A stretch of DNA of 64,000 bases from Acidobacteriota bacterium (GTDB lineage Bacteria > Acidobacteriota > Vicinamibacteria > Marinacidobacterales > SMYC01), in the NCBI GenBank assembly GCA_004356105.1, contig SMYC01000060.1, positions 1,194 to 65,193 on the forward strand, written 5' to 3'. The notes beneath the pieces are model-generated. The model saw only the letters and a program-made list of their open reading frames with translations. It had not been told where the DNA came from and did not search any database. Of this stretch, positions 4,235-52,679 are shown piece by piece. Position 1 is the stretch's first letter. The number at the start of each line of letters is the position of its first letter. Both the position numbers and the translations under genes were made by a program.

Positions 4235-5059
4235 CTATTTCGTAAGCTCGCGGTGCACGCCTTCGATGTTCATGTCGAAGTGCTCGTCGTAGCGTGTCCA
4301 GTCCGTGTACTCCGAAAGCTCCACCGATTCTTGCATCTGCGCGAGTGTCTGACCTTTGTCGATGCCATCTTGAACGGCCGCAATCAGAGCCTTCATGTAT
4401 CCGATATATTCCCCGACATTTTCCTTCTTCCCCGTCGGTCCGTGCCCGGGCGCGAGAATCTCGAAGTCGATCGCGTCCATTTTCTCGAGGGCGGCGAGCC
4501 ACTCGTGTGGATCGGACCCGGACATGTTGCGCCATGGAACAACGCGAACGCCGACGGCATCCACCATGAACGCAACGCCGCGCTCGGGAACGTGGACGAT
4601 GATGTTGCTCTCCGTCTCGGACGGTCCGGGGAAGATCAAGCGAACTTCCAAATCGTCCAGATAGAGAGAGGTCTCTTCGGCAAAAGTGATGTGGGGCGGG
4701 AGGATGTCCCCTTGAATGTGATCAAGCACCCCTTGATGCGCGATGATCGTCACGTCGTCACCGAACGCAGCGCCGCCGGAGACGTGGTCGGCGTGATGGT
4801 GGCTGTAGACGAGGTACTTGATGGGCGCCTGACTTATCTTGCGGATTTCCTCTACGTAGTGCGGCGCCGCTTCCACCGATTGCGGATCGGTCGCAAGAAT
4901 GGCGCTGTCGGTGACAACGAAGAGCGAACGATGCGCGTTGTGGGTAAAGAGATAGACGTTCTCCGCTAGCTTCTCGACTTCGATCTTCGGTGTGTCTTGC
5001 ACGGCCAAAGCTGCGCCCGCGAGCATCGTCAAGAGAACCAGCATTATTGTACGCGGCAT
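4235..5059 (-). CDS. Secreted metallo-beta-lactamase-fold hydrolase (subclass B3-like).
   Basis: It has a signal peptide (MPRTIMLVLLTMLAGAALA) and the HHHADH zinc-binding motif. Downstream His/Asp residues are consistent with the MBL fold. Confidence 0.8.
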   Translation of the reverse strand: MPRTIMLVLLTMLAGAALAVQDTPKIEVEKLAENVYLFTHNAHRSLFVVTDSAILATDPQSVEAAPHYVEEIRKISQAPIKYLVYSHHHADHVSGGAAFGDDVTIIAHQGVLDHIQGDILPPHITFAEETSLYLDDLEVRLIFPGPSETESNIIVHVPERGVAFMVDAVGVRVVPWRNMSGSDPHEWLAALEKMDAIDFEILAPGHGPTGKKENVGEYIGYMKALIAAVQDGIDKGQTLAQMQESVELSEYTDWTRYDEHFDMNIEGVHRELTK

Positions 5060-5143
5060 GACCTAACCTCCCTGTTGGTTCGAGGATAGTAAGGCGGGCG
5101 GTCCACCGGACGCAAACCCGTGATCTTGATAAGATGGCGCCCT

Positions 5144-5953
5144 ATGTTCGGACTCGTCGTCGCGCTTGCCCTCGCGCAATCCACACCTCTGAAGGTAGCC
5201 GCCGATGTCGGTTTCGCGCCGCACGCGATGGCCCTCCCGGATGGCTCCACCGAAGGCTTCAATATCGACCTCGCCGCGGAGATTGCCAAACGGCTCGGTA
5301 GGCCGGGCTACGAGATCGTGGACTCCGAGTGGTCAGGCATGTTTGCCGGTCTCGGCGCGAGAAAATTCGAGTTCATCATCGCCCCGACGACGGCGACACC
5401 CGAGCGGGCGCGGATGGTGCTCTTCACCGAAGGCTATCTCGACACGGATTATACGTTTCTGATTGGGAGACACTCGCCCGAAATCACGTCGCCCGAGGAT
5501 CTGCGGGACAAAGCCATCGCGGTCAATAACGGCTCCGCCTATGACCTGTGGGCAACGGAGAACGCCGCGAAATACGGCTTCGAAGTGCAGCGTTACGGCA
5601 AGAACGCCGACGCGATCCAGGCCGTCCTGACGAGGCGCGCTTATGCCAACCTCGCCGCGCACTCGGTTGTGAGCTGGGCCGCTCAGAAAAATACGCTTGT
5701 GAAGACGAGCTACACGATCCGCTCGGGTCGGGCCTTCGCGATGGCCTTTCGCAAGGAAGACGCCGCCTATCGCAATCAAGTGGAAGAAATCCTGGAATGC
5801 ATGAAGCTGGACGGCACTCTCGCATACATCCATGAAAAATGGCTCGGGGAGGCCCCGGCCGAAGGCTCGGCGGCCGCGACCGTCTACGAGGGCTATGGTG
5901 TTCCCGGGCTCGACGGCTTCGATCCCACGCCACACGAAGCGACGTGCCGCTAA
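5144..5953 (+). CDS. Amino-acid ABC transporter periplasmic substrate-binding protein (SBP_bac_3 family).
   Basis: It has a signal peptide and the family-3 SBP pattern, and it sits directly upstream of the ATPase and two permeases. Confidence 0.8.
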   Translation: MFGLVVALALAQSTPLKVAADVGFAPHAMALPDGSTEGFNIDLAAEIAKRLGRPGYEIVDSEWSGMFAGLGARKFEFIIAPTTATPERARMVLFTEGYLDTDYTFLIGRHSPEITSPEDLRDKAIAVNNGSAYDLWATENAAKYGFEVQRYGKNADAIQAVLTRRAYANLAAHSVVSWAAQKNTLVKTSYTIRSGRAFAMAFRKEDAAYRNQVEEILECMKLDGTLAYIHEKWLGEAPAEGSAAATVYEGYGVPGLDGFDPTPHEATCR

Positions 5954-6687
5954 GAGACGTCATCCTTCACATCGAAGGCCTCCGCAAATCCTTCGGCGAT
6001 CTCGAAGTCCTCAAAGGCGTCGACCTCGAGCTTTCGCGAAAAGAGATGCTCTTCCTCATCGGCCCCTCGGGCTCGGGCAAGAGCACGCTCCTTCGTTGCT
6101 GCAACCGGCTGGAGGAGCCGTCCTCCGGCTTGATCTCGTTCGACGGCGAGAACATCTTGAGCGCCGAGATCGACGTGAACCGATTGCGCCAAAAAATGGG
6201 CATGGTGTTCCAGTCGTTCAACCTCTATCCGCACATGACGGCGCTCGGCAACGTGACGCTCGCGCTTCGAAAAGTGCTAAAGCGGCCGAAGCGCGAGGCC
6301 GAGGACGCGGGGCGGGCCGCGCTCGAGCAGGTCGGGCTGGTAGACAAAGCTGATGCTTACCCGAACGAGCTCTCTGGAGGCCAGAAGCAGCGGGTCGCCA
6401 TCGCACGAGCGCTCGCGCTCGAGCCGCGCACACTCCTCATGGACGAGCCGACGAGCTCACTCGATCCAGAGCTCGTGGGAAGCGTGCTGAAGGTCATCCG
6501 TGAGCTGCGGGCGTCGGGGATGACCATGCTCATCGTCAGTCATGAGATGGCCTTTGCCCGTGAAGCCGCCGACCGCGTTCTGTTCATGGATGCGGGCGAG
6601 ATCGTCGAGCAGGGAGACCCGGAAGCGCTCTTCACCGAACCGAGAGAAGCGCGCACGCGCGCTTTTCTCGAGCGTTTTCAAAGCTAA
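5944..6687 (+). CDS. Amino-acid ABC transporter ATP-binding protein.
   Basis: It has Walker A (GPSGSGKST), the signature LSGGQKQRVAIARALA, and Walker B (LLMDEPTSSLD). The likely start is GTG 5944, overlapping the SBP stop. Confidence 0.85.
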   Translation: MPLRDVILHIEGLRKSFGDLEVLKGVDLELSRKEMLFLIGPSGSGKSTLLRCCNRLEEPSSGLISFDGENILSAEIDVNRLRQKMGMVFQSFNLYPHMTALGNVTLALRKVLKRPKREAEDAGRAALEQVGLVDKADAYPNELSGGQKQRVAIARALALEPRTLLMDEPTSSLDPELVGSVLKVIRELRASGMTMLIVSHEMAFAREAADRVLFMDAGEIVEQGDPEALFTEPREARTRAFLERFQS

Positions 6688-7358
6688 TGGGATCGCTCGT
6701 CGACAGTTTCTTCAACGCGGAGATTCTGGCGCGAGCGCTGCCGGCCGTCACGGCGGGACTCTGGGTCACGCTGCAGCTAACGCTCGCCATCATCCCGACA
6801 GGCATCACACTCGGACTCGCATTAGCACTCGTGCGCGTACGGCGCCTTCGCCCTCTCAACATTCTGATCGTCATCTTCGTCGACGTATTTCGCGCGGTCC
6901 CTCCACTCGTCATCTTGATCGTGCTCTACTTCGCGCTCCCCTATCTCGATATCCGGCTCTCGGGATTCACCGCCGCGTGGCTCGGATTGAGCCTCGTCCT
7001 CGCAGCTTTTTCCGAAGAGATTTTCTGGGCCGGCATCTTGTCCGTCGACGAGGGCCAGTGGGAGGCCGCGCGCGCGACGGGACTCAGCTCGAGCGCGACG
7101 CTCGTCTACGTCGTCTTGCCTCAAGCGGTTCGCCTTGCCATTGCGCCGCTCACGAACCGCGCGATCGCGATCGGCAAAGGAACAGCTCTCGCCTCCGTCA
7201 TCGCCGTACCCGAGATCCTCAATCAAGCGACGAGCATCCAAGCGCAAACGGCCAACCCGTCGCCGTTGACGCTCGCGGCAATGGCCTACCTCGTGCTGTT
7301 TCTTCCACTCGTGGTGGCGAGCCGATGGGTGGAATCGCGCTTTGGCTGGAGGCATTGA
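6687..7358 (+). CDS. Amino-acid ABC transporter permease.
   Basis: It has multiple transmembrane segments and the EAA loop (EAARATGLS). Its ATG overlaps the ATPase stop. Confidence 0.8.
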   Translation: MGSLVDSFFNAEILARALPAVTAGLWVTLQLTLAIIPTGITLGLALALVRVRRLRPLNILIVIFVDVFRAVPPLVILIVLYFALPYLDIRLSGFTAAWLGLSLVLAAFSEEIFWAGILSVDEGQWEAARATGLSSSATLVYVVLPQAVRLAIAPLTNRAIAIGKGTALASVIAVPEILNQATSIQAQTANPSPLTLAAMAYLVLFLPLVVASRWVESRFGWRH

Positions 7359-8029
7359 TGGAATCTCTCATCGACAGCTTCTTCAATCCCGAGGTCATGA
7401 AAGCGAGCCTGCCCTACTTGGTTCGTGGGCTCGTCATGACGCTTCAGCTCTCGTCAATCGTCATCCCGACAGGCGTCGTGAGCGGCGCCGTGCTCGCGAT
7501 TCTCTTCACCTCCCATCACCGATGGCTTCGCGCTCTCCTCATCGTCTATGTCGATTTCTTCCGCGCTTTCCCGCCTCTCGTCCTCGTGATCTTCGTGTTC
7601 TACGGGCTTCCTTATCTCGGGATCGAGATTTCGAATCTCGCTGCCGTGAGCCTCGCTCTTGTCTTGAACACGTCGAGCTTCTACGGGGAGATTTTTCGCG
7701 CGGGCATCGAGAGCATTCCAGCCGGGCAGTGGGAAGCGGCACGAGCGACAGGGCTCTCTTCGTTGCAAACGATGACCTATGTCGTCTTGCCACAAGCGAC
7801 GCGCAACGTGCTTCCCGACCTCGTGAGCAATACGCTCGAAGTGGTGAAGCTCACTTCGCTCGCGAGCGTTGTCGCACTTCCAGAGCTTTTGCGGATGGCG
7901 CGCATTGCGCAAGGCGTAACCTTCAACCCCACGCCCCTCGTGATGGCCGCGCTCGTTTACCTCGTGTTCCTTTGGCCCCTCGTCCGGCTCTTGAGCTCTA
8001 TGGAGCGCCGTTTGGCTGCTCCCGTTTGA
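7358..8029 (+). CDS. Amino-acid ABC transporter permease (second copy).
   Basis: It is a paralogue of the previous gene (MESLIDSFFNPEV...EAARATGLS). It overlaps the first permease by ATGA. The upstream part of ORF 6542-8029 is a shadow frame. Confidence 0.8.
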   Translation: MESLIDSFFNPEVMKASLPYLVRGLVMTLQLSSIVIPTGVVSGAVLAILFTSHHRWLRALLIVYVDFFRAFPPLVLVIFVFYGLPYLGIEISNLAAVSLALVLNTSSFYGEIFRAGIESIPAGQWEAARATGLSSLQTMTYVVLPQATRNVLPDLVSNTLEVVKLTSLASVVALPELLRMARIAQGVTFNPTPLVMAALVYLVFLWPLVRLLSSMERRLAAPV

Positions 8030-14540: not shown

Positions 14541-15519
14541 GTGTCATCGTGCCTCGCGCGACAGGAGGTTCAAATGAGCGAGAAAGAACCAAAGGAACCG
14601 TCGCCTCGTGAGGCGCTTCTTCAAATCGTCAACGGCTATATGATTTCCCAGGCAATCTATGTGCTCGCCAAGCTGGACATCCCGGACGCGTTAGCCGACG
14701 GCCCCATGAGCTCCGAGGAGCTCGCTGGCACCGTCGACGCGGACCCGCGGTCGCTCCATCGTGTTCTGAGAAGCGTTGCTGGTGTCGGCGTCCTGTCGCA
14801 AGACGATGATGGCCGCTTCGCGCTCACTCCGATGGGCAAGCTTCTGAGGAGCGACGTGGAAAGTTCGGTCAAAGGCTGGACGATCATGCGCGGGGAGCCG
14901 GTCCTGTGGCGACCCTGGGGTGAGATTCTCCATAGCGTGAAGACAGGTAAGCCCGCCTTCGACCACGTGTTCAGCAAACCCGCCTTCGACTCCCTTCGCG
15001 ACCACCCAGATGACGCCCGCTTGTTCGACGAAGCTATGCGATCGATTTCCGGGTCAAGTTCAGCGCCGTAGCGAACGGGTATGACTTCGCGGAGGTCGAT
15101 ACACCCGTAGATATTGAGGGCGGCGATGGCGGAATGAAACGGAGATCCTCGAAGCCCACCCCGACGTGAAAGGTACGATCGCGGAGCTTCAGCACGTAGT
15201 CGATCACGCCAAAGAGTGCATAGAAGCCGCAGGCCTCACCGATCGTTGCAGATGTGTGCCGGTGGATATTCTCGAGAAAGTCCCCGAAAGAGATGCGTAC
15301 ATTTTGGGTAACGTCATCCACGATTGGAACGATGAGCGTTCACGCCTGATCCTCTCGAACTGCCGCAAAGCGATGCGCGAACAGGGCACGCTCTTGCTCG
15401 TCGAGTTGGTCATCACGCCGGGAAACGAGCTCCACCTCGCGAAACTCGTGGACGTCGAAAAGCTCGTCATGACCGACGGAGGCCGAGAGCGCACGGAGAA
15501 TGAGCGCCGCTTGTCTTAA
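14541..15519 (+). pseudogene. Class I SAM-dependent O-methyltransferase disrupted by at least 2 frameshifts.
   Basis: ORF 14541-15071 is the OMT dimerisation/N-terminal part. An intervening frame reads GYDFAEVDTPVDIEGGDGG, the SAM-binding VDVGGGxG equivalent. ORF 15166-15519 is the C-terminal part (GNVIHDWNDE...). Confidence 0.6.
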
Positions 15520-15745
15520 AATACACGTTACCAAGGGTGACACTCGCCAGCTTCTCCCACCTGAAACCCCTGCACCTGAACTCCGTAAAGCCACCCGGGA
15601 GGATATTGTTTTCAGGAGACTCCTTGCTCGACCGTTACTCAGAGCTCGGCGCCCACGACTTACTTCATCTCGCATCCTACAAGCGACGTGAAACAGGACG
15701 ATCATGACCTACGAACGCGCGCTCAGCGCGCCATTCGAAACGTAG

Positions 15746-15905
15746 CGGCGTTTCGCGTAATCGCGTGTCTCACGTGAGTCACGATTTCCACAGTTTTCCC
15801 ACAGGCCCCGAAGCACTTTTCCACAAAAAACGTTTCCGCGGAAACGTTTCACCGCTGCCATCAGACGGCGAAAGGCTCCGAGGAGCCAATAGGGGGCGCA
15901 CTTCA
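15746..15905 (+). repeat. Direct repeat copy A (about 105 bp near-identical, about 160 bp with degraded ends). It contains an imperfect 23-bp palindrome.
   Basis: It matches 16987-17150 with a handful of mismatches over the first ~105 bp. The core is tcacgtgagtcacgatttccacag...ccacaaaaaacgtttccgcggaaacgttt, and the palindrome aaaacgtttccgcggaaacgttt lies at 15827-15849. Confidence 0.85.
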
Positions 15906-16011
15906 ATGCTCGATGACGGATTCCCATCCCACAATCCTGACGTGCACCGCTCAGAGGAACGGCGCACAGATCCGCGAGTCGACGCGCACCTCGAGCAGCT
16001 GGCCGCCTAAA

Positions 16012-16440
16012 TCATGCCCCGAGCACAATGACGCCATCTAGCCTACGGGAAGCCTTCTCGAACGTGATCAAAGTGGCGGGGATCATCCCATACTGTGCGT
16101 GTATCATCCGATCCACGAATCCCGGTTTCTGGGATGAACCCTTGATAGACTCGAGCGCCTGAACGGCGACACCGTTTTCTTCCGGCTCTACAAACCGCGA
16201 TCGTAGAAAATCCAGCAGCACCCTGACAGCTGCTTTCTTCGGCACTTGGTAGTGGGCCTGCAATGCGAAATAAGCTTCCGACACGACCAGGTCGGAAACG
16301 AACGCTCTTCGACCGGCAGACTTCAGCTCTTTGAGAAATCCCAGCGCCTCGTCAGCTTGATCGGAAGGCTCGGCCGTCAAGAGTCGAAGAACCACAGAGG
16401 TATCGAGGCCCACGGTAGGCGCTAAATCAGAGCTCGCCAC
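16012..16440 (-). CDS. vapC: PIN-domain ribonuclease toxin VapC.
   Basis: It has acidic PIN residues (LDTSVV...D...), is about 142 aa, and overlaps the upstream antitoxin by 14 nt. Confidence 0.75.
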   Translation of the reverse strand: MASSDLAPTVGLDTSVVLRLLTAEPSDQADEALGFLKELKSAGRRAFVSDLVVSEAYFALQAHYQVPKKAAVRVLLDFLRSRFVEPEENGVAVQALESIKGSSQKPGFVDRMIHAQYGMIPATLITFEKASRRLDGVIVLGA

Positions 16441-16687
16441 AGCTGCGCGCCTCTGCGACGCTTTTGCGAATAGACTTCATATCGTGTCGCTTGCCCTTCG
16501 CGTAACTTCTTAGGCTACCGAACCACGGAGTCTCGATGTCCGCAGCAGGCTTTATAACCCAGACCTTTTCCCCATCCACAATCAGTGAGTCAACAATCAA
16601 CGCATCACCCGGCTGCAATCTCATCTCCTCACAGAGCTTCTTGGGGAGCGTTGCTTGACGTTTCGCCGTTATTCTAATTACAGTCAT
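16427..16687 (-). CDS. vapB: AbrB/MazE/SpoVT-type antitoxin VapB.
   Basis: An 86-aa protein with an N-terminal swapped-hairpin-like segment (MTVIRITAKRQATLPKKLCEEMRLQPGDALIV). Confidence 0.7.
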   Translation of the reverse strand: MTVIRITAKRQATLPKKLCEEMRLQPGDALIVDSLIVDGEKVWVIKPAADIETPWFGSLRSYAKGKRHDMKSIRKSVAEARSCGEL

Positions 16688-16986
16688 GGTGATAGCTCCT
16701 TACCATTTTACAGTAGAGTAAGGCGTGATTCTTGTCAAGATAGTCCAATCAAGTCCCACTCAATCAGGCGTGATGTGGAAATCAGGGCATCGTGTGCGTG
16801 AGGAGTTGGGGTCGAGTGTCGTCTTGTGGGGCTATGTTCCGCTCTACTTTACTTTGGCGGTGCGCCAGAATGAGGCGTATCAGAGCGGGCTCGGTGACGA
16901 AAGCAACGATCTTCATCTGGGCCCGCGGGGCGGGTCAACGACGCCGCTCGGAGGCTTAACGCGGCGTTCGGAGACCTCTAACTAGC

Positions 16987-17150
16987 TGCGTTTCACGCAA
17001 TCGCGTGCCTCACGTGAGTCACGATTTCCACAGTTTTTCCACAGGCCCCGAAGCACTTTTCCACAAAAAACGTTTCCGCGGAAACGTTTTCGCCTCTGCA
17101 TCCGACAGCAACAGGCCCCGAGGAGCCAAGAGGGTGCTCGGGGCAAGCAA
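16987..17150 (+). repeat. Direct repeat copy B, with a perfect 24-bp palindrome aaaacgtttccgcggaaacgtttt at 17067-17090.
   Basis: See copy A. The two copies are 1240 bp apart and bracket vapBC. Confidence 0.85.
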
Positions 17151-17155
17151 CGGCA

Positions 17156-17491
17156 CTACTCGACGGGGACGCGCTCTTTCAGCACCTCGAACCAGTTGAC
17201 GACGACGTGGATCGTCTCAGCCTGCGAAGATGGGCCGCCACGAACCATAACGAATCTCTTCCCGTCAGGGGTCACGTCGTAGTTCCGGCCGATGTAATCG
17301 GAGTAAAACACATCGCGGATCGGGCGTGGCGTCCCCGCCCTGAGCTCGGGCTCCGTCAGTAATAGATCTGACGTCACAAAGCACCACGGGCGCCCCCCGT
17401 TGACGGAGACTTTCTGAAGCTTTCCGTCCGCCCAATAACCGATCCACCGCCCATCCGGAGAGCCCATGCTGACCAAGAAACGTCTTCGCAT
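17156..17491 (-). pseudogene. C-terminal remnant of a TolB-propeller kinase paralogue.
   Basis: The fragment YDVTPDGKRFVMVRGG...TIHVVVNWFEVLKERVPVE matches the C-terminus of the neighbouring kinase (YDVAPDGQRFLMIQD...LNVVINWFKELKTNVPNP). Confidence 0.5.
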
Positions 17492-17529
17492 GGGGACATC
17501 AGACAGCGTAAAATCGCCTACGAATCAAG

Positions 17530-19933
17530 ATGGCACTCGAAGCTGGGACCAGGCTAGGCGACTACGAAATTCTCTCGCCCATCGGCGCCGGAGACATGGA
17601 GAGGTCTATAAAGCGCGAGACGTGCGCCTCGACCGTATCGTGGCCATCAAGGTTCTACCGGCGCATCTTTCCGAGAACGCCCAGCTGCGGCAGCGCTTCG
17701 AGCAGGAGGCGCGCGCGATCTCGAGCCTCAATCATCCGAACATTTGTACGCTTCACGATATCCACCTTCGCCAAGGCTCCGGCGGACAAGCCGGCTATGA
17801 CGTCGATGTGGACTTCATGGTGATGGAGTACATCGAAGGGGAAACGCTTGCCCAGAGAATCGCGCGCGGCGCTATCCCGTTGGAAGAGGCCATCGAGATC
17901 GGCTTGCGGGTGGCGGATGCGCTCGACAAAGCGCACCGAAACGAGATCGTACATCGTGATGTGAAGCCCGGAAACATCATCTTGACGAAGTCCGGGCCCA
18001 AGCTTATCGATTTTGGACTGGCCAAGCGTCGTGTGACCGGAAGCAGCGAAAGCGATGCGTCGGCGGTCACGGAACAAAAGCCGTTAACGGAAGAAGGCGC
18101 GATTCTCGGAACGTTCCAGTACATGGCGCCGGAGCAGGTAGAGGCTCTGGATACGGATGCGCGGACCGACATCTTCGCCTTCGGCGCGCTTCTCTACGAA
18201 ATGCTGACCGGACGAAAGGCTTTCGAAGGCAGGAGCCAAGCGAGCCTCATCAACGCCATCCTGTCTTCGGAGCCGCAGCCGATCGCCGAGCTTCGTCCTA
18301 CGACACCTAGCAGGCTCGGGCGCATCGTACGGCGCTGCTTAGCGAAAGATCCTGACGATCGCTGGCAGTCGGCGCGCGACATGGTGCTCGAGCTTTCGTC
18401 TCTGAGCGACGAAGTCGACGCACCGTCGCCTATGGCGCCGGCATCCAGAACCGGTGAGCGGCTCCTTTGGACTCTAGCCCTAATGGCTGTTGCGATAACG
18501 GGTGTCGTGCTCAGGCATTCGGGAACCGCGGACACGACGCGGTTGTCTGTATCGCTCCCGCCGGGGCACCAACTCCTGGGCGGTAGTAGCGCCTTAGGAC
18601 GAATCGCATCCTTCGACATCTCACCGGACGGCCGGAACATCGTGTATGCAGCCCGGAGCAGTTTAGGGAGACAGCTCTACCTTCGCCGGCTGGGAGATTT
18701 CGAGGCCGTCGCCATTCCGGGTACGGAAGGCGCCTCAATGCCGTTTTTTTCTCCGGACGGAGAAAGGATCGCTTATTGGGCCGGGCCCGGGCTGGGTAGT
18801 CTCCGAAAGATTTCGATAGCCGGCGGGGCGTCTACGAAGATTTTCGATGGGAACTTTCGTAACGGTGGGAGCTGGGGACCGAACGGAACGATCGTGTTCG
18901 GCGGCCCGCAATTATCGCGCGTCCCCGAAGATGGCGGCGTGCTCGAGCCAATCGGCACAACGGAGCCCAATAGCGTTTTTTCCTGGCCACAAGTGCTGCC
19001 GGACGGCAAGGAAGTCCTCGTCACCGTGGCGCGGCGAGACCATGACCGCATCGTTGTGGTTTCGCTCGAAACGGGCGAGGCACGCACGGTACTCGAAGGA
19101 TACGGTAGTGCTCGCTACGTCTCGAGCGGCCACCTTATCGTTCACGACGTGCCGACAGCGAACCTGCTCGCCGTCGGCTTCGATCTCGCGAAACTCGAGG
19201 CTCACGGCGCCCCCGTGCCGGTCGTCGAGAACGTGTACGCGTCGCCACGCGGCTTCGCTCAATTCGCGGTTTCTGAAACCGGGGTCCTCGCCTATGCGCC
19301 CGCCGGACAAGGAGGCAACGCGCTCATCTGGGTGGATCGCGAAGGCCGCGCGAGCGAAGCCTGGGAAATCGAAAGAGGCGCCTACACCCATCCGCGCGTC
19401 TCGCCGGACGGCAGCACGCTTCTGTTCCTAGAGATACAAACGACAGGAGCCTCCGATTCCGATATCCTCATACTATCGGATGGCGGTGAGCCGGTTCGGT
19501 TTCTCTCGAGCCCGTTCAGGGAGCTGTCCCCCATCTTTTCCCCGGACGGTCGCTACATCGCCTACGTTTCAGACGAATCGGGACGATCCGAAGTGTACGT
19601 GCGTCCGTATCCTGCCGGTAACCAGAAGTGGGCCGTCTCGACCGACGGCGGCCAAGAGCCGGTCTGGTCCCGCGATGGGCGAGAGCTCTTTTATCGCAGC
19701 GGCACCAAGATGATGGTCGCCACCGTGCGTCTCGGCTCTTCCTTCGAGGCGGACAGACCGCGGCACCTGTTCGAAGCAACGTACTTCACAGACGGCGCCC
19801 ACCCCCGCCTACGACGTCGCACCGGACGGCCAACGCTTTCTCATGATCCAGGACAACGAAGAAGAACGCACACCAGTTGAACGTCGTCATCAACTGGTTC
19901 AAGGAGTTGAAGACAAATGTGCCCAACCCCTAG
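17530..19933 (+). pseudogene. Ser/Thr protein kinase fused to a C-terminal TolB-like (PD40) beta-propeller. About 3 single-base frameshifts.
   Basis: From ATG 17530 the sequence reads MALEAGTRLGDYEILSPIGAG, then the frame slips near 17599 (GAGDMERS should read GAGGMGEVYKARDV). The kinase motifs HRDVKPGNIIL, DFGLAK and APE are present. Frames change again near 19800 (ccccc run) and near 19873 before the final NVVINWFKELKTNVPNP* at 19933. Confidence 0.7.
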
Positions 19934-48696: not shown

Positions 48697-48770
48697 TTCG
48701 AAAGATGCCCGTTCGGCGAGGGTCTTCCCGCGTCCGTGGGCCTCACAGCGGATCCATCGAGCGATTTTCT

Positions 48771-51700
48771 ATGGCAGAGCGTTACGCCCTCGTCATCGAC
48801 GACGACACCACGTTTCGTGATCGGGTCTCCGGACTCCTCGCGCCGCACAAGATCGTTGTAACGGGCGCCTCGGACAAAGACGAGGTCCTGTCCCTTCTCG
48901 AAGACCGGCGCCCCGTTCTCGTGATCCTCGCGGTAGAGCTTCCCGACAAAGATGGCTTCGCTCTTTTTCGTAAAGTGAAGAAGGCGGACTTCGACGTTCC
49001 CGTCATTATTACAACTGCGACGGTAGCGAAGGCCGAGCTCAGCCGACACGAGACACAGCCATCCCACGCAGAGTACTACCTCCAAAAAGACGAGATCTCC
49101 GACTCGGACCTTCTAAACGCGATCGCGAAGGCCGGCCGTCTCGACCTCACTTCGCCAGACACGACCGCGCGAGCCGAGCCTTCGGCCTCCGAGGAGGATG
49201 TCGCCGAATCCGCGGAGAGCATCGGCGACGACCTCGACCCCCGTTTGGCGAGATATCTGGATGACGAGACCACCACCATTTTCGCCCAGATCGACGAGCG
49301 CGCGCTCGAGGAGCACAGCCAGCGCAACCCGGCGACGCAGCAAGGCGAGGTCTCCGCAGAGCGTGTCGCCGAGCTCGAGAGCGAAGTGGATCGGCTCACG
49401 GACGAGCTCGATCAATCCCGCAGCGCCGCGCGCAGCTCGCCGTTCTCGAAAGACTTCCTGAAACTCCGCGACGTCGCGAGCCAGAAAGACAAAGAGATCC
49501 ACGTTCTAACGGACTCGCTCGCCGACCGCGAATCCCAGGTGCGCGTCGTCAGGCGCAAGCTGTCCGAGCTCGTAAAGCGCTTCGTCGGACCGGAATCGTG
49601 GGACGGCGAAGATCAGGACGAGCTGCGAGCCCTCACCGAAGAGCTCGACCATTCGCGGGCGAAGTTTCGAGATCTAACCGAGCACGTCGAAGCCACCGAG
49701 CTCCGGCACAAGCAAGAGATTGACGAAATAGCCAAACGACTCGTCAAGACGCAGCGAGCGCGTGACCAAGAACGCGACGAGGCGGCCGAGCTCCGACGCG
49801 GTCTCGAAGGCGCCGAATCCACGCTCGGAGAGGTACGGCAGCAATCCGACCAAGAGAACGACGACCAGCAACGTGAGCGCAAAGACCTCACGAAGCGGCT
49901 CGTCCTCACCCAGCGCGAGCGCAACCAAGGTCGCGAAGAAGCCACAGAGCTCAAAGGACTCCTCGAGAGTCTCGAGGTCAAGCACGCTGAGCTCACCGAG
50001 CAAACGGACGCGACAAAAGCTCGGCACGAGCGCGAGAGCGCGGAGCTCACTGAACGGCTCGAGGCCGGCCAGAAAGCTCGGGACGAGGCGCGCCAGGAGA
50101 CGGCTGAAGTTCGCGGGCTTCTCGACGGTGTCCGCGCGAAGCTCGAAAAACTCACCGGAGAGGCCGAGGCGACCCGTGCCAAACACGAGCAGGAGGCCGA
50201 GGAGCTGACGAACCGACTCGTCGTGACCCAACGCGATCGAGACGAACGACGCGAAGAAGTCACCGAGCTTCGGAGCCTGGTGACGGTATTCCAGGCCAAG
50301 ATCGAACAGCAGACGGAAAAAGCCGAGGAGTCACGAAGCAAACACGAGCAAGACGCCGCCGTGCTCGAGGAGCGAGTCGTCACGGGCAAGAGGGAGCGTG
50401 ACAAGATCCGAGAGGAAGCCGCGGACCTCGCTGAACGCCTCTCCGAAGCCAAGGCCAAGCTCACCAAGACGGTTGCAGAGGCCAACAAAGCGCAAGGCCG
50501 CTACGAACAGCAGAACGAAGCTCTCGAGCAGAAAGTCTCCGCGGAGACGGCCAGCGCGGCCCAAGCGCATGTCGAGCTCGAGACCGGACTCTCAGAGCTG
50601 CGGCTTCAGCACGCGCACGAGCTTCAGGAGCACAACGCGAACCAAAAGGCGGAAATCAAGAAGCGCGAGAAGACTCTCGCGGAGGAAAAAGCCGCGGCGA
50701 TGAACGAGCTCAAAAAGAAGCTCGATACGAGGCTTCGACAGTCGGAGACCAGCCACACGCGCTCGCTCGCGGCTTTGGGCGAGGAGCACGTCAAAGAGTT
50801 GGCCTCCGTCCATTCGGGCCATGGTGAAGCGAGGCGGCGCGCCGCCACGGAAGTCCAAGAAGCTCTCGAGGAAGCATCCAAGAAGAACGCCGCCGCCCTC
50901 AAGCAGTCGGACGAACAGCGCGCCGCCCAGCTCCTGCAAGCGGAAAACAAGCGCGTCGCGGAAGTCACGTCTCTCGAACAACGCTATGAGGAACGGCTTG
51001 CGTCGCTCACTCAAAGCCATGCCGCCGAGACCAGCGCCCTCGACCAGAAGGCCAAAGCCGCGATTCGGTCGAACGAGCAGATGCTCGAAGAGGTCACAGC
51101 TAAAGTCCAGGATGTGTTGAAGAGCTGGGAGACGGAGCGCACAGCGCATTACCAGACGCGCGAGCGCTACGAGAAGGAGACGACGGAGCTCCAGAAAAGC
51201 CATACGAAGAATCTCGCGACGGCGGAGCAGGACCAATTCGCGGCGCTCGCGGGCATGTCGCGCAAGTTCAAGGAAGACCGCACGGCCGCGCTCGAGGTGG
51301 AACGGCGGCGGTGGCAGGAGATAGCAGCCGACCTACAAACAAAACATGCGGAGGCTCTCGGCTCTCTCAAGACCCAGCATGAGGACGAGCTCGAGCAACG
51401 CGACAAGGTGCACGACAAGACCATCGAGCAAAAGAGGCGCGAAGCGATGCAAGTACAAAAAGCGGCGCTCGAGCGCAAGGCCGCTTCACATCACAAAGCG
51501 TTAGAAAAGATGGGGCGCGAGCACGCCGACGAAATCGTTTCCTGGCGTCAAAAGAGCGAACAAAGCGTCGCAGGGCTCCGACAGAGCCACATGAAAGTCC
51601 TCGCCGACCGCGATCGCGACGCGGAGCACACGCTTCGCACCACGGTCGAGCAGCTCAAGAAAGACCACGGCCGTCATCAAGAAAAATTGCGCGACGCGCA

Positions 51701-52679
51701 GGCGCAAATGGTCAACGCGCTGCGCGGCGAGTATGGGAAAGAGCTCCAAACCATGGAGCAAGCTCAACGCAGCGCGCTCGCGCTCCAGGAGCAAGCCGCC
51801 CACACAGCGCTCAGCGCAGTCGAGGAAGAACGAGATGAATCCCGGGTGATGATCGACGGCCTACGGGCCGAAATCGCCGAGATGGCCGCGAAACACCGCT
51901 CGAGCACTCGGGTCGCCGAAGAGGCACACAATGCCGAGGCCAAGGAGCTCAAAAAGGAGCTCGAGTCCAGCCGAGCACGGCTCGAAGTGGAACGACAGGC
52001 GCTCCAGGCCTCGATGGCGAAGCTCGAGCGTGAATCGTCCGGCGAGCTCAAACAAGCCAACGAATCGCTGCAGCACGAAAAGAAGCTTCACGTGGCGACG
52101 CGCGAGAGATATGAGCGACGCGTGAACGAGCTCAAGACCCGCCACAGCTTGGGGATCGACCGCGTCGAAAGTGACTGGATCGACAAGCTCGAACACTTGG
52201 AGACGAGCTTGAGAGCGAAAGCCGAGAAGGCCGTCGTCACCGCGGAGCAGGACTGGAAGGGTAAGCTCGAATCACTGCGGAGGGAATACGAAGAAGTGGT
52301 CGAGAGCTCGCGGAAGGAGTTCGAGCTCGAGCTCGCCGCCGCGATCCGGGCATCGGAGGGTGCTCGCTCCATCGAGGAATCCTACGAAGCGGCTTCGCGC
52401 GAGCTCAGCACTTTGAACGCAAAACTCGAGAAACTAGAGACCGAGCTCTCCGTAGCAAGGCACGAAATCGTCGAGCGCGACACAACCATCCAATCCAACT
52501 CCCGCAAGGCCGCCGAGCACCAGCAGACGGTCGATTCCCTGAAAGCCGTCATCAACGACTTCTCACGATCCGTCGACGGCTACGTCGAGGACGGCGACGA
52601 AAAGACGCATGAAAAGATCAATTCCCTGAAAGCCGTCATCGACGACATGTATCGCAGCATCGACGGCCCAAAAAACTAG
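48771..52679 (+). CDS. Response-regulator receiver domain fused to a coiled-coil region of about 1150 aa (AglZ/FrzS-like architecture).
   Basis: The REC domain reads MAERYALVIDDD...VLVILAVELPDKDGF. It is followed by E/R/K/A/Q-rich heptad sequence with about 53-aa tandem repeats (…TQRARDQERDEAAELRRGLEGA…, …TQRERNQGREEATELKGLLES…, …TQRDRDERREEVTELRSLV…). The C-terminus has a duplicated motif SLKAVINDFSRSVDG / SLKAVIDDMYRSIDG. The start could alternatively be ATG 48705. Confidence 0.75.
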   Translation: MAERYALVIDDDTTFRDRVSGLLAPHKIVVTGASDKDEVLSLLEDRRPVLVILAVELPDKDGFALFRKVKKADFDVPVIITTATVAKAELSRHETQPSHAEYYLQKDEISDSDLLNAIAKAGRLDLTSPDTTARAEPSASEEDVAESAESIGDDLDPRLARYLDDETTTIFAQIDERALEEHSQRNPATQQGEVSAERVAELESEVDRLTDELDQSRSAARSSPFSKDFLKLRDVASQKDKEIHVLTDSLADRESQVRVVRRKLSELVKRFVGPESWDGEDQDELRALTEELDHSRAKFRDLTEHVEATELRHKQEIDEIAKRLVKTQRARDQERDEAAELRRGLEGAESTLGEVRQQSDQENDDQQRERKDLTKRLVLTQRERNQGREEATELKGLLESLEVKHAELTEQTDATKARHERESAELTERLEAGQKARDEARQETAEVRGLLDGVRAKLEKLTGEAEATRAKHEQEAEELTNRLVVTQRDRDERREEVTELRSLVTVFQAKIEQQTEKAEESRSKHEQDAAVLEERVVTGKRERDKIREEAADLAERLSEAKAKLTKTVAEANKAQGRYEQQNEALEQKVSAETASAAQAHVELETGLSELRLQHAHELQEHNANQKAEIKKREKTLAEEKAAAMNELKKKLDTRLRQSETSHTRSLAALGEEHVKELASVHSGHGEARRRAATEVQEALEEASKKNAAALKQSDEQRAAQLLQAENKRVAEVTSLEQRYEERLASLTQSHAAETSALDQKAKAAIRSNEQMLEEVTAKVQDVLKSWETERTAHYQTRERYEKETTELQKSHTKNLATAEQDQFAALAGMSRKFKEDRTAALEVERRRWQEIAADLQTKHAEALGSLKTQHEDELEQRDKVHDKTIEQKRREAMQVQKAALERKAASHHKALEKMGREHADEIVSWRQKSEQSVAGLRQSHMKVLADRDRDAEHTLRTTVEQLKKDHGRHQEKLRDAQAQMVNALRGEYGKELQTMEQAQRSALALQEQAAHTALSAVEEERDESRVMIDGLRAEIAEMAAKHRSSTRVAEEAHNAEAKELKKELESSRARLEVERQALQASMAKLERESSGELKQANESLQHEKKLHVATRERYERRVNELKTRHSLGIDRVESDWIDKLEHLETSLRAKAEKAVVTAEQDWKGKLESLRREYEEVVESSRKEFELELAAAIRASEGARSIEESYEAASRELSTLNAKLEKLETELSVARHEIVERDTTIQSNSRKAAEHQQTVDSLKAVINDFSRSVDGYVEDGDEKTHEKINSLKAVIDDMYRSIDGPKN
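49650..50550 (+). repeat. Diverged about 159-nt tandem coding repeats inside the coiled-coil gene.
   Basis: The recurring protein unit is ...ELT(N/E)RLV(V/L)TQR(D/E)R(D/N)..REE.TEL(R/K).L... The DNA repeats are diverged, not identical. Confidence 0.45.

What the first reader, a model, noticed from the sequence alone, without database searches (positions are those of the whole stretch)
15746..17150. vapBC toxin-antitoxin cassette bracketed by two copies of a roughly 105-160-bp element with 23/24-bp palindromes
The two direct repeats are near-identical over about 105 bp and similar over about 160 bp. Each contains the palindrome aaaacgtttccgcggaaacgttt(t), which is perfect and 24 bp long in copy B, plus a second palindromic core cgtgaGtcacg. 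Each also opens an ORF beginning M(S/P)HVSHDFHSF(P/S)TGPEALFHKKRFRGNV. Copy A lies just past the vapC stop and copy B lies 300 bp upstream of vapB. Copy B abuts a truncated kinase paralogue, and copy A abuts the OMT pseudogene. This could be a mobile TA cassette delimited by MITE-like or recombination-site repeats, a duplicated operator for a dimeric regulator, or a conserved small-peptide gene.
Basis: seen in the sequence. Interest (0 to 1): 0.6.

Follow-up and report, generated by a model that had tools for sequence, protein, structure and literature searches.

The report
Duplicated DnaA-box and terminator intergenic module
The two repeats around the vapBC toxin-antitoxin genes are real copies of a small non-coding DNA module (a palindrome, three DnaA-box-like motifs and a terminator hairpin) that sits between genes in one uncultured Acidobacteria lineage; they are not the ends of a mobile toxin-antitoxin cassette and not a peptide gene.

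Summary
Copy A (15743-15897) and copy B (16983-17137) are 95% identical over 107 nt, lie 1240 bp apart, and are the only copies in the 64 kb window.

Eleven copies from metagenomes share one architecture. An invariant CTCACGTGA palindrome is followed, after a fixed 11 nt, by three co-oriented TTTCCACAG boxes at 11 and 22-23 bp spacing. These boxes fit the DnaA-box consensus. Then usually comes the A/T-flanked palindrome AAAACGTTTCCGCGGAAACGTTTT. Box 2-box 3 spacers and flanks differ between copies, so the motifs themselves appear to be selected.

The small ORF is not conserved. There are no terminal inverted repeats, target duplications, attC cores or Rfam hits.

Copy B is the resident copy. 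Twelve related contigs carry one B-like element at the kinase 3' end with no vapBC, and two carry vapBC plus B only. Close vapBC homologues elsewhere have no element. The breakpoints of the vapBC presence/absence variant do not fall inside the repeats.

Best reading: an intergenic protein-binding module, probably a DnaA-box cluster with a partner palindrome, joined to an intrinsic terminator and duplicated when a vapBC-bearing fragment arrived. The function is inferred, not shown.

The parts
15743..15897 (+). Element copy A. Weaker homology to copy-B orthologues begins near 15717.
   Evidence: Direct-repeat families D1 and D3; alignments; profile hit 15756-15868.
15764..15783 (.). Palindrome 1 of copy A, CGTGTCTCACGTGAGTCACG. 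The invariant core CTCACGTGAG is at 15769-15778.
   Evidence: Inverted repeat I21. CTCACGTGA is invariant in all 11 copies and lies a fixed 11 nt before box 1.
15785..15826 (+). Three DnaA-box-like motifs of copy A: TTTCCACAG at 15785-15793, TTCCCACAG at 15796-15804, TTTTCCACA at 15817-15825. CCACA starts are 11 and 22 bp apart.
   Evidence: The boxes are invariant while the box 2-box 3 spacer varies. Box 2 reads TTATCCACA in L188. The same 11-mers form the dnaA-dnaN intergenic array in L104.
15828..15849 (.). Palindrome 2 of copy A, AAACGTTTCCGCGGAAACGTTT (22 bp perfect). Probably the intrinsic terminator of vapBC on the minus strand.
   Evidence: The hairpin folds at about -12 kcal/mol and is followed by U6 on the minus strand.
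16983..17137 (+). Element copy B, the resident copy. It is orthologous to the single copies in L199-L210 and L188.
17004..17023 (.). Palindrome 1 of copy B, CGTGCCTCACGTGAGTCACG.
   Evidence: Inverted repeat I22.
17025..17066 (+). Three DnaA-box-like motifs of copy B: TTTCCACAG at 17025-17033, TTTTCCACA at 17035-17043, TTTTCCACA at 17057-17065.
17067..17090 (.). Palindrome 2 of copy B, AAAACGTTTCCGCGGAAACGTTTT (24 bp perfect). Probably the intrinsic terminator of the minus-strand kinase gene.
   Evidence: A symmetric variant, ACGTTCCCGCGGGAACGT, occurs in L206-L210.
16012..16687 (-). vapB (16427-16687) and vapC (16012-16440), both intact. They lie between the two copies but are not functionally tied to them.
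   Evidence: Pfam MazE_antitoxin and PIN; gene calls.
16688..16745 (-). vapBC's own promoter region: TTGACA with a 17-nt spacer to TACTGT, and the inverted repeat CCTTAC-N14-GTAAGG. This is the likely VapB operator.
   Evidence: Read directly from the sequence. This is inference.
17156..17491 (-). C-terminal 111-aa remnant of a PD40/Tricorn-type Ser/Thr kinase. The gene is full length in L188 and L207-L209, and its stop abuts copy B.
14541..15519 (+). O-methyltransferase pseudogene, split across two reading frames.
   Evidence: Pfam Dimerisation and Methyltransf_2 on two separate gene calls; absent in L125.
15765..16010 (+). Spurious ORF opened by copy A. Its counterpart at 17005-17199 is opened by copy B. 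Neither is a gene.
   Evidence: Frame is not conserved in L125 or in diverged copies.

Best explanation
The repeat is a non-coding intergenic DNA module of about 155-185 bp, found in a lineage of uncultured Acidobacteriota with large genomes. The related contigs that carry the locus reach 5.6 to 10 Mb.

It has two functional halves.

Half 1 is the core that is kept in every copy. It is a CACGTG-centred palindrome, presumably the site of a dimeric protein. Exactly 11 nt further on come three co-oriented 9-mers (TTTCCACAG, compatible with the DnaA-box consensus TTWTNCACA) on one face of the helix, at 11 and 22-23 bp spacing. I infer that this core is a non-origin DnaA-box cluster. It would bind DnaA together with an unknown partner, in the manner of DnaA-titrating or DnaA-modulating loci.

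Half 2 is an A/T-flanked 22-24 bp palindrome. It is an intrinsic, roughly bidirectional transcription terminator for the convergent genes around the module. It is dispensable for the family, being absent or broken in two copies.

Copy B is the resident copy at the 3' end of a PD40-type kinase gene. Copy A came in with, or was generated together with, a fragment of about 1.4 kb that carries vapBC. The bracketing of vapBC is therefore a lineage-specific by-product. In the window the two palindrome-2 hairpins now end the kinase remnant and vapBC transcripts respectively.

Shown: the anatomy, motif-level conservation, non-coding nature, and the locus history. Inferred: DnaA binding, the partner protein, and terminator activity.
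For: - Repeat and motifs.
- Eleven copies from at least six loci keep CTCACGTGA, the 11-nt offset and the three boxes. Eight distinct box 2-box 3 spacer versions occur and the flanks are unalignable.
- All three perfect TTWTNCACA matches in the 64 kb window lie inside the two copies.
- Box 2 is the canonical TTATCCACA in L188.
- The same TTTTCCACAGG/TTATCCACAGG 11-mers form arrays in about 100 metagenome loci. One of these lies between dnaA and dnaN.
- No dnaA, dnaN or parB is present in the window.
- Palindrome 2 folds at -10 to -16 kcal/mol and is followed by U6-U7 on the strand of the upstream kinase or vapC gene. One symmetric T:A to C:G change is seen in L206-L210.
- Most copies lie between convergent 3' ends.
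- Locus history: one element without vapBC in 12 contigs; vapBC plus B only in L188/L189; everything deleted in L184-L187.
Against: - No binding data exist. The boxes could serve another protein that recognises TTCCACA, for example a response regulator that binds 11-bp-phased direct repeats.
- Nothing is known about the binder of the CACGTG palindrome.
- Copy number and positions in a whole genome could not be measured. Only about 6 loci were recovered, so a genome-wide role is unproven.
- Terminator evidence is structural only. U-tracts are not conserved in all copies (the L162 group has the T-run on the other strand).
- The pair-count test shows one compensatory change and one disruptive change, and is not significant.
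- The consensus terminator scan did not list palindrome 2.
Confidence: 0.45

Rival explanations
1. Operator cluster for unknown transcription factors rather than DnaA. A dimeric regulator would bind the CACGTG palindrome, and an OmpR/PhoB-type or other regulator would bind the three 11-bp-phased direct repeats. Together they would control a neighbouring promoter or act as a roadblock.
For: Motif-level conservation with a fixed palindrome-to-box register. In L178 the core lies about 110 nt upstream of a kinase gene start, and in L112 palindrome 2 lies about 10 nt before a possible GTG start.
Against: Most copies lie between convergent 3' ends, where there is no promoter to control. No sigma-70-like or sigma-54-like promoter was found in or next to the element. 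The boxes match the DnaA consensus and drift within it, for example to TTATCCACA in L188. No regulator gene is consistently linked.
Confidence: 0.25
2. One reading: vapBC is a mobile cassette whose ends, or whose integration site, are the two repeats. Movement would be by site-specific or homology-driven Campbell-type insertion of a 1.24 kb circle carrying one repeat.
For: Direct repeats of 95% identity flank vapBC with a 1240 bp period. Relatives have exactly one element and no vapBC at the same locus. The sequence immediately left of the resident element differs in every lineage, which could be read as an insertion hot spot.
Against: - The variable block runs from about 185 nt left of copy A to the left edge of copy B, and unrelated DNA replaces it (100 nt in L199-L205, about 155 nt in L206-L210).
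- The solo copy is B-like throughout, not an A/B hybrid.
- L188/L189 have vapBC with B only, plus a remnant of A's right edge.
- Close vapBC homologues elsewhere lack the element.
- Element copies elsewhere lack TA genes.
- No recombinase gene lies within 10 kb.
- No terminal inverted repeats, target duplications or attC cores were found.
Confidence: 0.1
3. Relic of a plasmid, phage or integrative-element origin of replication. The boxes would be iterons or DnaA boxes, with a Rep or ParB-type operator palindrome. It would have been carried into the chromosome together with addiction modules.
For: TA genes and TA-like remnants lie next to copy A. Phased DnaA-box arrays occur next to ParB-like genes on phage-like contigs and at both ends of a 6.5 kb contig that is probably circular. 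The L192 copy lies beside a transposase fragment.
Against: No hit in viral contigs, phage records or plasmid records. No rep or par gene is nearby. The resident copy B is stably orthologous at a chromosomal locus across diverged genomes.
Confidence: 0.08
4. An RNA element: an sRNA or a 3'-UTR structure whose hairpins are the two palindromes.
For: Both palindromes can form hairpins. Copies usually begin within 0-60 nt of the stop codon of a co-oriented gene.
Against: No Rfam family is matched; the best hit has E=0.29 at 18 bits against a 97-bit threshold. There is no consistent global fold, with z-scores from -3.1 to +0.05 across copies and strands. The invariant parts are perfect palindromes and direct repeats rather than covarying stems.
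Confidence: 0.07
5. A conserved small-peptide gene starting M(S/P)HVSHDFHSF...
For: Both copies open an ORF with nearly the same first 30 residues.
Against: That similarity is a by-product of DNA identity. L125 copy A changes frame after FHK. The L162, L112 and L192 copies give unrelated or stop-interrupted translations. The start codon is GTG and I saw no ribosome-binding site upstream of it.
Confidence: 0.01

Closest known systems
Non-origin DnaA-box clusters: E. coli datA and DARS1/DARS2, and the Bacillus subtilis DnaA-box clusters (own knowledge)
   Same: A short intergenic, non-coding locus outside oriC that carries a few closely spaced DnaA boxes next to sites for accessory DNA-binding proteins.
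   Different: Here the boxes are all co-oriented at 11 and 22-23 bp and are locked 11 nt from a CACGTG palindrome of unknown binder. The module is a dispersed small family (at least 6 loci) with a terminator attached. No IHF or Fis sites were identified, and DnaA binding and any effect on initiation are untested.
Rho-independent (intrinsic) bidirectional terminators
   Same: Palindrome 2 is a 10-12 bp stem with an A-tract on one side and a T-tract on the other. It lies between convergent genes at -10 to -16 kcal/mol.
   Different: The stem is unusually A/T-rich away from its CCGCGG apex. The identical 20-mer recurs in many phyla, mostly inside DUF222-HNH genes, which ordinary terminators do not do.
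MITEs and REP/BIME-type intergenic repeats
   Same: Short, non-coding, intergenic and repeated, containing palindromes.
   Different: There are no terminal inverted repeats, no target-site duplications and low copy number. Conservation is confined to discrete motifs rather than the whole unit.
Integron gene cassettes with attC sites, which often carry TA genes
   Same: Direct repeats of about 100-150 bp flank a TA operon in a region full of gene fragments.
   Different: There are no R''/R' core sites. The element is not an end-to-end imperfect palindrome. No integrase lies within 10 kb. The indel breakpoints are not at the repeats.
parS / Noc-binding-site type 16-bp palindromes bound by ParB-family proteins (own knowledge)
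   Same: Palindrome 1 of copy A matches the parS consensus TGTTTCACGTGAAACA at 13 of 16 positions. Palindrome 2 shares the GTTTC...GAAAC arms.
   Different: The match is not significant: 13% of shuffles give such a match. Other copies match 12 of 16 by eye. No parB gene is nearby.

Membership tests
Non-origin DnaA-box cluster (datA/DARS/DBC-like) | Several close DnaA boxes matching TTWTNCACA | tested here: met
   Each copy has 2-3 boxes that match or are one mismatch from the consensus. All three perfect matches in 64 kb are in the copies. L188 has TTATCCACA.
Non-origin DnaA-box cluster (datA/DARS/DBC-like) | Located outside oriC | tested here: met
   No dnaA, dnaN, dnaB or parB in the window. 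No GC-skew switch across the window.
Non-origin DnaA-box cluster (datA/DARS/DBC-like) | DnaA binds the locus, and its loss changes replication initiation | not testable with these tools
   Needs EMSA or ChIP and genetics in an uncultured lineage.
Intrinsic terminator (palindrome 2) | Stable stem-loop followed by a U-tract, downstream of a co-oriented gene | tested here: met
   -12 kcal/mol plus U6 after the kinase remnant and after vapC in the window; -15.7 kcal/mol plus U7 after the intact kinase in L207. It was not listed by the simple scan. U-tracts are weaker in the L112 and L175/L178 copies.
Intrinsic terminator (palindrome 2) | Stem kept by compensatory changes | tested here: inconclusive
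   One compensatory pair (UA to CG) and one broken pair among 7 distinct copies. This is no better than shuffles.
MITE | Terminal inverted repeats and target-site duplication | tested here: not met
   The ends of the unit are not inverted repeats, and the flanks show no duplication.
MITE | Many dispersed copies per genome | tested here: inconclusive
   Two copies in 64 kb, both at one spot. About 6 loci in all collections. Whole genomes could not be scanned.
Integron cassette / attC | R'' (RYYYAAC) and R' (GTTRRRY) core sites with an overall imperfect palindrome | tested here: not met
   No core sites in either copy. Only local palindromes are present.
Integron cassette / attC | Precise presence/absence of the cassette at the repeat | tested here: not met
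   The breakpoints lie about 185 nt left of copy A and at the left edge of B, with unrelated filler DNA. The solo copy is not a hybrid.
TA operator (VapB-bound palindrome) | Palindrome overlaps the TA promoter and co-occurs with the TA genes | tested here: not met
   Copy B is 296 nt from vapB. The element occurs without vapBC in 12 orthologous contigs and at 4-5 other loci. vapBC occurs without the element.
Small protein gene | Reading frame and peptide conserved among copies | tested here: not met
   Frame shift in L125 copy A. Translations in diverged copies are unrelated.
Known RNA family (Rfam 15) | Covariance-model match at the gathering score | tested here: not met
   0 matches at gathering score in the window. 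The best sub-threshold hit is 18 bits against 97.
parS (ParB site) | At most 2-3 mismatches to TGTTTCACGTGAAACA, with a ParB system present | tested here: inconclusive
   Only copy A reaches 13 of 16, and the chance of one such match in the window is 13%. No parB in the window.

The most novel reading that the evidence does not exclude
The module could be a previously undescribed, dispersed class of chromosome-maintenance site in large-genome Acidobacteriota. A fixed pairing of a CACGTG palindrome with a phased DnaA-box trio would act as a datA/DARS-like regulator of DnaA, or as a polar fork- or transcription-barrier. Its left edge would also be a hot spot where foreign fragments, here a vapBC module, are repeatedly captured and replaced.
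Probability: 0.15. Interest if true: 0.65.

Novelty: new variant of a known kind. Interest (0 to 1): 0.35.

Why it matters
If the core does bind DnaA, it would be the first hint of datA/DARS-type control loci in Acidobacteriota, a dominant but poorly cultured soil phylum. It would also give a compact 60-bp probe (palindrome plus three boxes) for finding the partner protein.

For annotation, the practical points are these:
- The GTG ORFs are not genes.
- The A/T-flanked palindrome is best treated as a terminator.
- The vapBC pair here is an ordinary, locally acquired TA module in a decaying, indel-prone intergenic zone, not a cassette with defined ends.

Tried and rejected
- **Rfam:** searched at gathering and at E-value thresholds. 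Nothing usable.
- **RNA folding:** four copies folded on both strands. No shared fold.
- **External collections:** the palindrome and two composite patterns were scanned against viral contigs, and the element was compared by blastn with plasmids and phages. No hits.
- **Literature:** a full-text search for the palindrome returned only unrelated primers.
- **Genome-collection scan with the 20-mer palindrome:**
  - It returned 74 loci, none with the window's module.
  - In 29 of them the palindrome lies in or next to a DUF222-HNH gene, where it typically encodes NVSAETF.
  - It therefore did not identify the source genome or further copies.
- **Flank similarity beyond the repeat**. None found.
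- **PIN-gene remnants:**
  - By eye, short PIN-like tails (...LSAPFET* before copy A; ...LSAAFET* before copy B in L188 and L125) seem to precede both copies.
  - Neither Pfam nor tblastn with 120 PIN proteins confirmed this, so I do not rely on it.
- **parS reading of palindrome 1**. Not significant.
- **Association of TCACGTGA with DnaA-box arrays in general**. Only one case.
- **Sigma-54 promoter near the element**. None.
- **attC cores**. None.
- **DUF222 gene in the window or related loci**. None.
- **Covariation test on palindrome 2**. Not significant.
Full report
**1. The observation**

The window holds two direct copies of one element. Positions 15743-15849 and 16983-17089 are 107 nt at 95% identity. 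They continue at 82% identity in 15859-15897 and 17099-17137, and the copies are 1240 bp apart.

The CCGCGG-centred palindrome (22 bp perfect in copy A, 24 bp in copy B) and the CACGTG-centred palindrome occur nowhere else in the 64 kb. None is expected in shuffles. A profile built from all known copies finds no third copy in the window.

Sequence beyond the repeat is not similar on either side. About 25-30 nt to the left show weak homology when copy A is compared with copy-B orthologues.

vapB (MazE/AbrB-type) and vapC (PIN) lie between the copies on the minus strand. The minus-strand ORF 17156-17491 is the C-terminal remnant of a PD40-type Ser/Thr kinase. The OMT gene at 14541-15519 is split across two frames.

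**2. Anatomy**

Read on the plus strand, each copy contains the following:
- The imperfect 20-mer CGTGyCTCACGTGAGTCACG.
- Eleven nt after the central GTG, three co-oriented boxes (TTTCCACAG, TTTyCCACAGG, TTTTCCACA). Their CCACA starts are 11 and 22 bp apart.
- The palindrome (A)AAACGTTTCCGCGGAAACGTTT(T).
- A less conserved tail of about 50 nt.

All three perfect matches to the DnaA-box consensus TTWTNCACA in the whole window fall inside the two copies.

**3. Relatives**

A metagenome scan for the three-box pattern gave 105 loci.

Most are tandem 11-bp arrays of TTTTCCACAGG or TTATCCACAGG. One such array lies between dnaA and dnaN (L104). Others lie next to ParB-like genes on phage-like contigs. 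These 11-mers are therefore used as DnaA boxes in real origins.

Six of the loci carry the same composite module as the window (L125, L112, L166, L162, L175, L178). Look-ups around neighbouring genes added L188/L189, L192, L199-L205 and L206-L210.

In the 11-copy alignment:
- CTCACGTGA, the 11-nt offset, box 1, the CCACA of box 2 and TTTTCCACA of box 3 are invariant.
- With the L201 and L207 copies, the box 2-box 3 spacer has eight distinct versions. Its length is 22-23 bp start to start.
- Everything outside the module is unalignable between groups.

In L188, box 2 has drifted to the canonical TTATCCACA. Palindrome 2 is absent in L192 and half deleted in L188. The indispensable core is therefore palindrome 1 plus the boxes.

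This pattern is what selection on discrete protein-binding sites produces.

**4. What it is not**

- **Not a peptide gene.** In L125 a one-base change in the A-run shifts the frame after FHK, and diverged copies translate to unrelated peptides.
- **Not a known RNA.** Rfam gives nothing, and folds show only the local hairpins with inconsistent z-scores.
- **Not a MITE or an attC.** It has no terminal inverted repeats, no target duplications and no R''/R' cores.
- **Not found in viral contigs, phage records or plasmid records**.
- **VapB is an unlikely binder.** The module occurs at loci with no TA genes: between STAS and SDR genes, after a YceI gene, upstream of a kinase gene, and beside a BMC operon. 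vapB also has its own promoter-proximal inverted repeat, CCTTAC-N14-GTAAGG.

**5. History of the locus**

The window's SSF transporter is TDI46329.1 from a MAG labelled Acidobacteria bacterium. Twenty-four contigs from related populations show five states of the SSF-to-kinase interval.

| State | Contigs | Content of the interval |
|---|---|---|
| S5 | L206-L210 | OMT remnants, about 155 nt of unique sequence, one element, then the stop of the kinase gene (an intact or near-intact 749-773 aa call in L207-L209; split in two in L206; cut off in L210); no vapBC |
| S1 | L199-L205 | One element, B-like along its whole length, next to kinase remnants; no vapBC |
| S2 | window, L075-L078, L125 | Copy A, vapBC, copy B |
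| S3 | L188/L189 | vapBC plus B next to an intact 911-aa kinase (intact in L188); only a trace of A's right edge |
| S4 | L184-L187 | The whole block is gone |

Comparing S1 with S2, window positions of about 15559-16945 are replaced by an unrelated 100 nt. The breakpoints are not inside the repeats, and the solo copy is not an A/B chimera.

VapC homologues at 92% and 77% identity sit in other contexts without the element.

Copy B is therefore an old resident at the kinase 3' end. Copy A arrived with, or was created alongside, the vapBC-bearing fragment.

In L125, copy A carries a different box 2-box 3 spacer from the one copy A has in the window, where it is identical to B's. This suggests later gene conversion between A and B.

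**6. Palindrome 2**

It folds into a 10-12 bp hairpin of -10 to -16 kcal/mol. On the minus strand it is followed by U6 in the window and U7 in L207. In both cases it is just downstream of the kinase stop, and for copy A it is downstream of vapC.

L206-L210 carry the symmetric variant ACGTTCCCGCGGGAACGT, a paired T:A to C:G change. The L112 copy has an uncompensated change. The formal pair count is not significant.

I read palindrome 2 as an intrinsic, roughly bidirectional terminator. This fits the usual position of the module between convergent genes.

**7. Mechanism**

Shown:
- A conserved, non-coding, motif-structured module.
- A resident copy and a secondary copy.
- No link to TA mobility.

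Inferred:
- The core is a non-origin DnaA-box cluster working with an unknown dimeric protein on the CACGTG palindrome, analogous to datA/DARS or the B. subtilis DnaA-box clusters.
- The distal palindrome terminates transcription.

The main rival is that the boxes serve another regulator. The cassette, plasmid-relic, RNA and peptide readings are progressively less likely.

**8. Verdict**

It is a new variant of a known kind of element and of moderate interest. The next decisive step is a whole-genome scan of the available long contigs, together with a DnaA-binding test.

Noticed in passing
L001-L074 (for example L041 5941 and 6676; L005 7160, 7193, 7724; L009 111 and 363): The exact 20-mer AACGTTTCCGCGGAAACGTT occurs in 74 loci across many phyla. 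In 29 of them it lies in or next to a DUF222+HNH endonuclease gene, where it typically encodes NVSAETF. It often appears 2-3 times per gene, including the extreme 3' end, and symmetric variants (GTTCCCGCGGGAAC, GTCTCCGCGGAGAC) occur. One such protein gives a weak ParB-HTH hit (E=0.003). This points to a DNA-level role for the palindrome in that gene family.
   Followed up: partly
L042 about 870-1030: In a Gemmatimonadota MAG the same palindrome is flanked on both sides by GGTTCACGTGAACC palindromes, just upstream of a tRNA gene. This is a second context where CACGTG-type and CCGCGG-type palindromes co-occur, here without DnaA boxes.
   Followed up: no
L002, L008, L019, L051, L055, L056 (MAG NP59) and L007 (MAG NP21): One gammaproteobacterial MAG carries six copies of the palindrome. 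In L008 and L056 (and in L007 from MAG NP21) it is preceded by a similar CACGATAT...CGGAAAACG stretch, which suggests a local repeat family.
   Followed up: no
L090 198-238 and 6268-6308; L128, L081, L088: Phased TTTTCCACAGG/TTATCCACAGG arrays appear at both ends of a 6.5 kb contig, which is probably a small circular replicon. They also appear next to ParB-like genes on phage-like contigs.
   Followed up: partly
L149 about 1054-1160: A DnaA-box array lies directly beside a canonical parS site (TGTTTCACGTGAAACG). It was the only such case among about 100 arrays.
   Followed up: partly
window 17530-17640: The plus-strand kinase gene (ORF 17466-19880) appears to carry a frameshift in its glycine-rich loop: an ORF starting MALEAGTRLGDYEILSPIGAGDME runs out of frame with ...GEVYKARDV. 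Gene callers start it internally at 752 aa. It may be a pseudogene like its neighbours.
   Followed up: no
L199 10672-11646; L200 11285-12610; L202 10645-11970: A reverse-transcriptase (RVT_1, group II intron-like) gene is inserted between the two divergent kinase genes in some related genomes but not in others such as L201 and L203. An IS200-type Y1 transposase lies beside it in L200.
   Followed up: no
window 48705-52679: A 1324-aa ORF coincides with extreme AT skew (0.40-0.46, against about 0.05 elsewhere). It also contains a symmetric palindrome variant, GTCTCCGCGGAGAC, encoding VSAET at 50535.
   Followed up: no
L192-L198, about 5000-8000: The region upstream of a conserved S15 peptidase gene differs in every one of seven related contigs. 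In most of them it is filled with different transposases (ISAZ013, IS66, IS4-like, rve), which marks an insertion hot spot in these roughly 10 Mb genomes.
   Followed up: no
L178 293-310 and 667-685; L175 left flank: In the L175/L178 subgroup the module has an extra left extension of about 70 nt that starts at a CTCGTTTrrrCGAGATT hairpin. A second partial copy of that extension lies about 200 nt downstream of the L178 element.
   Followed up: no
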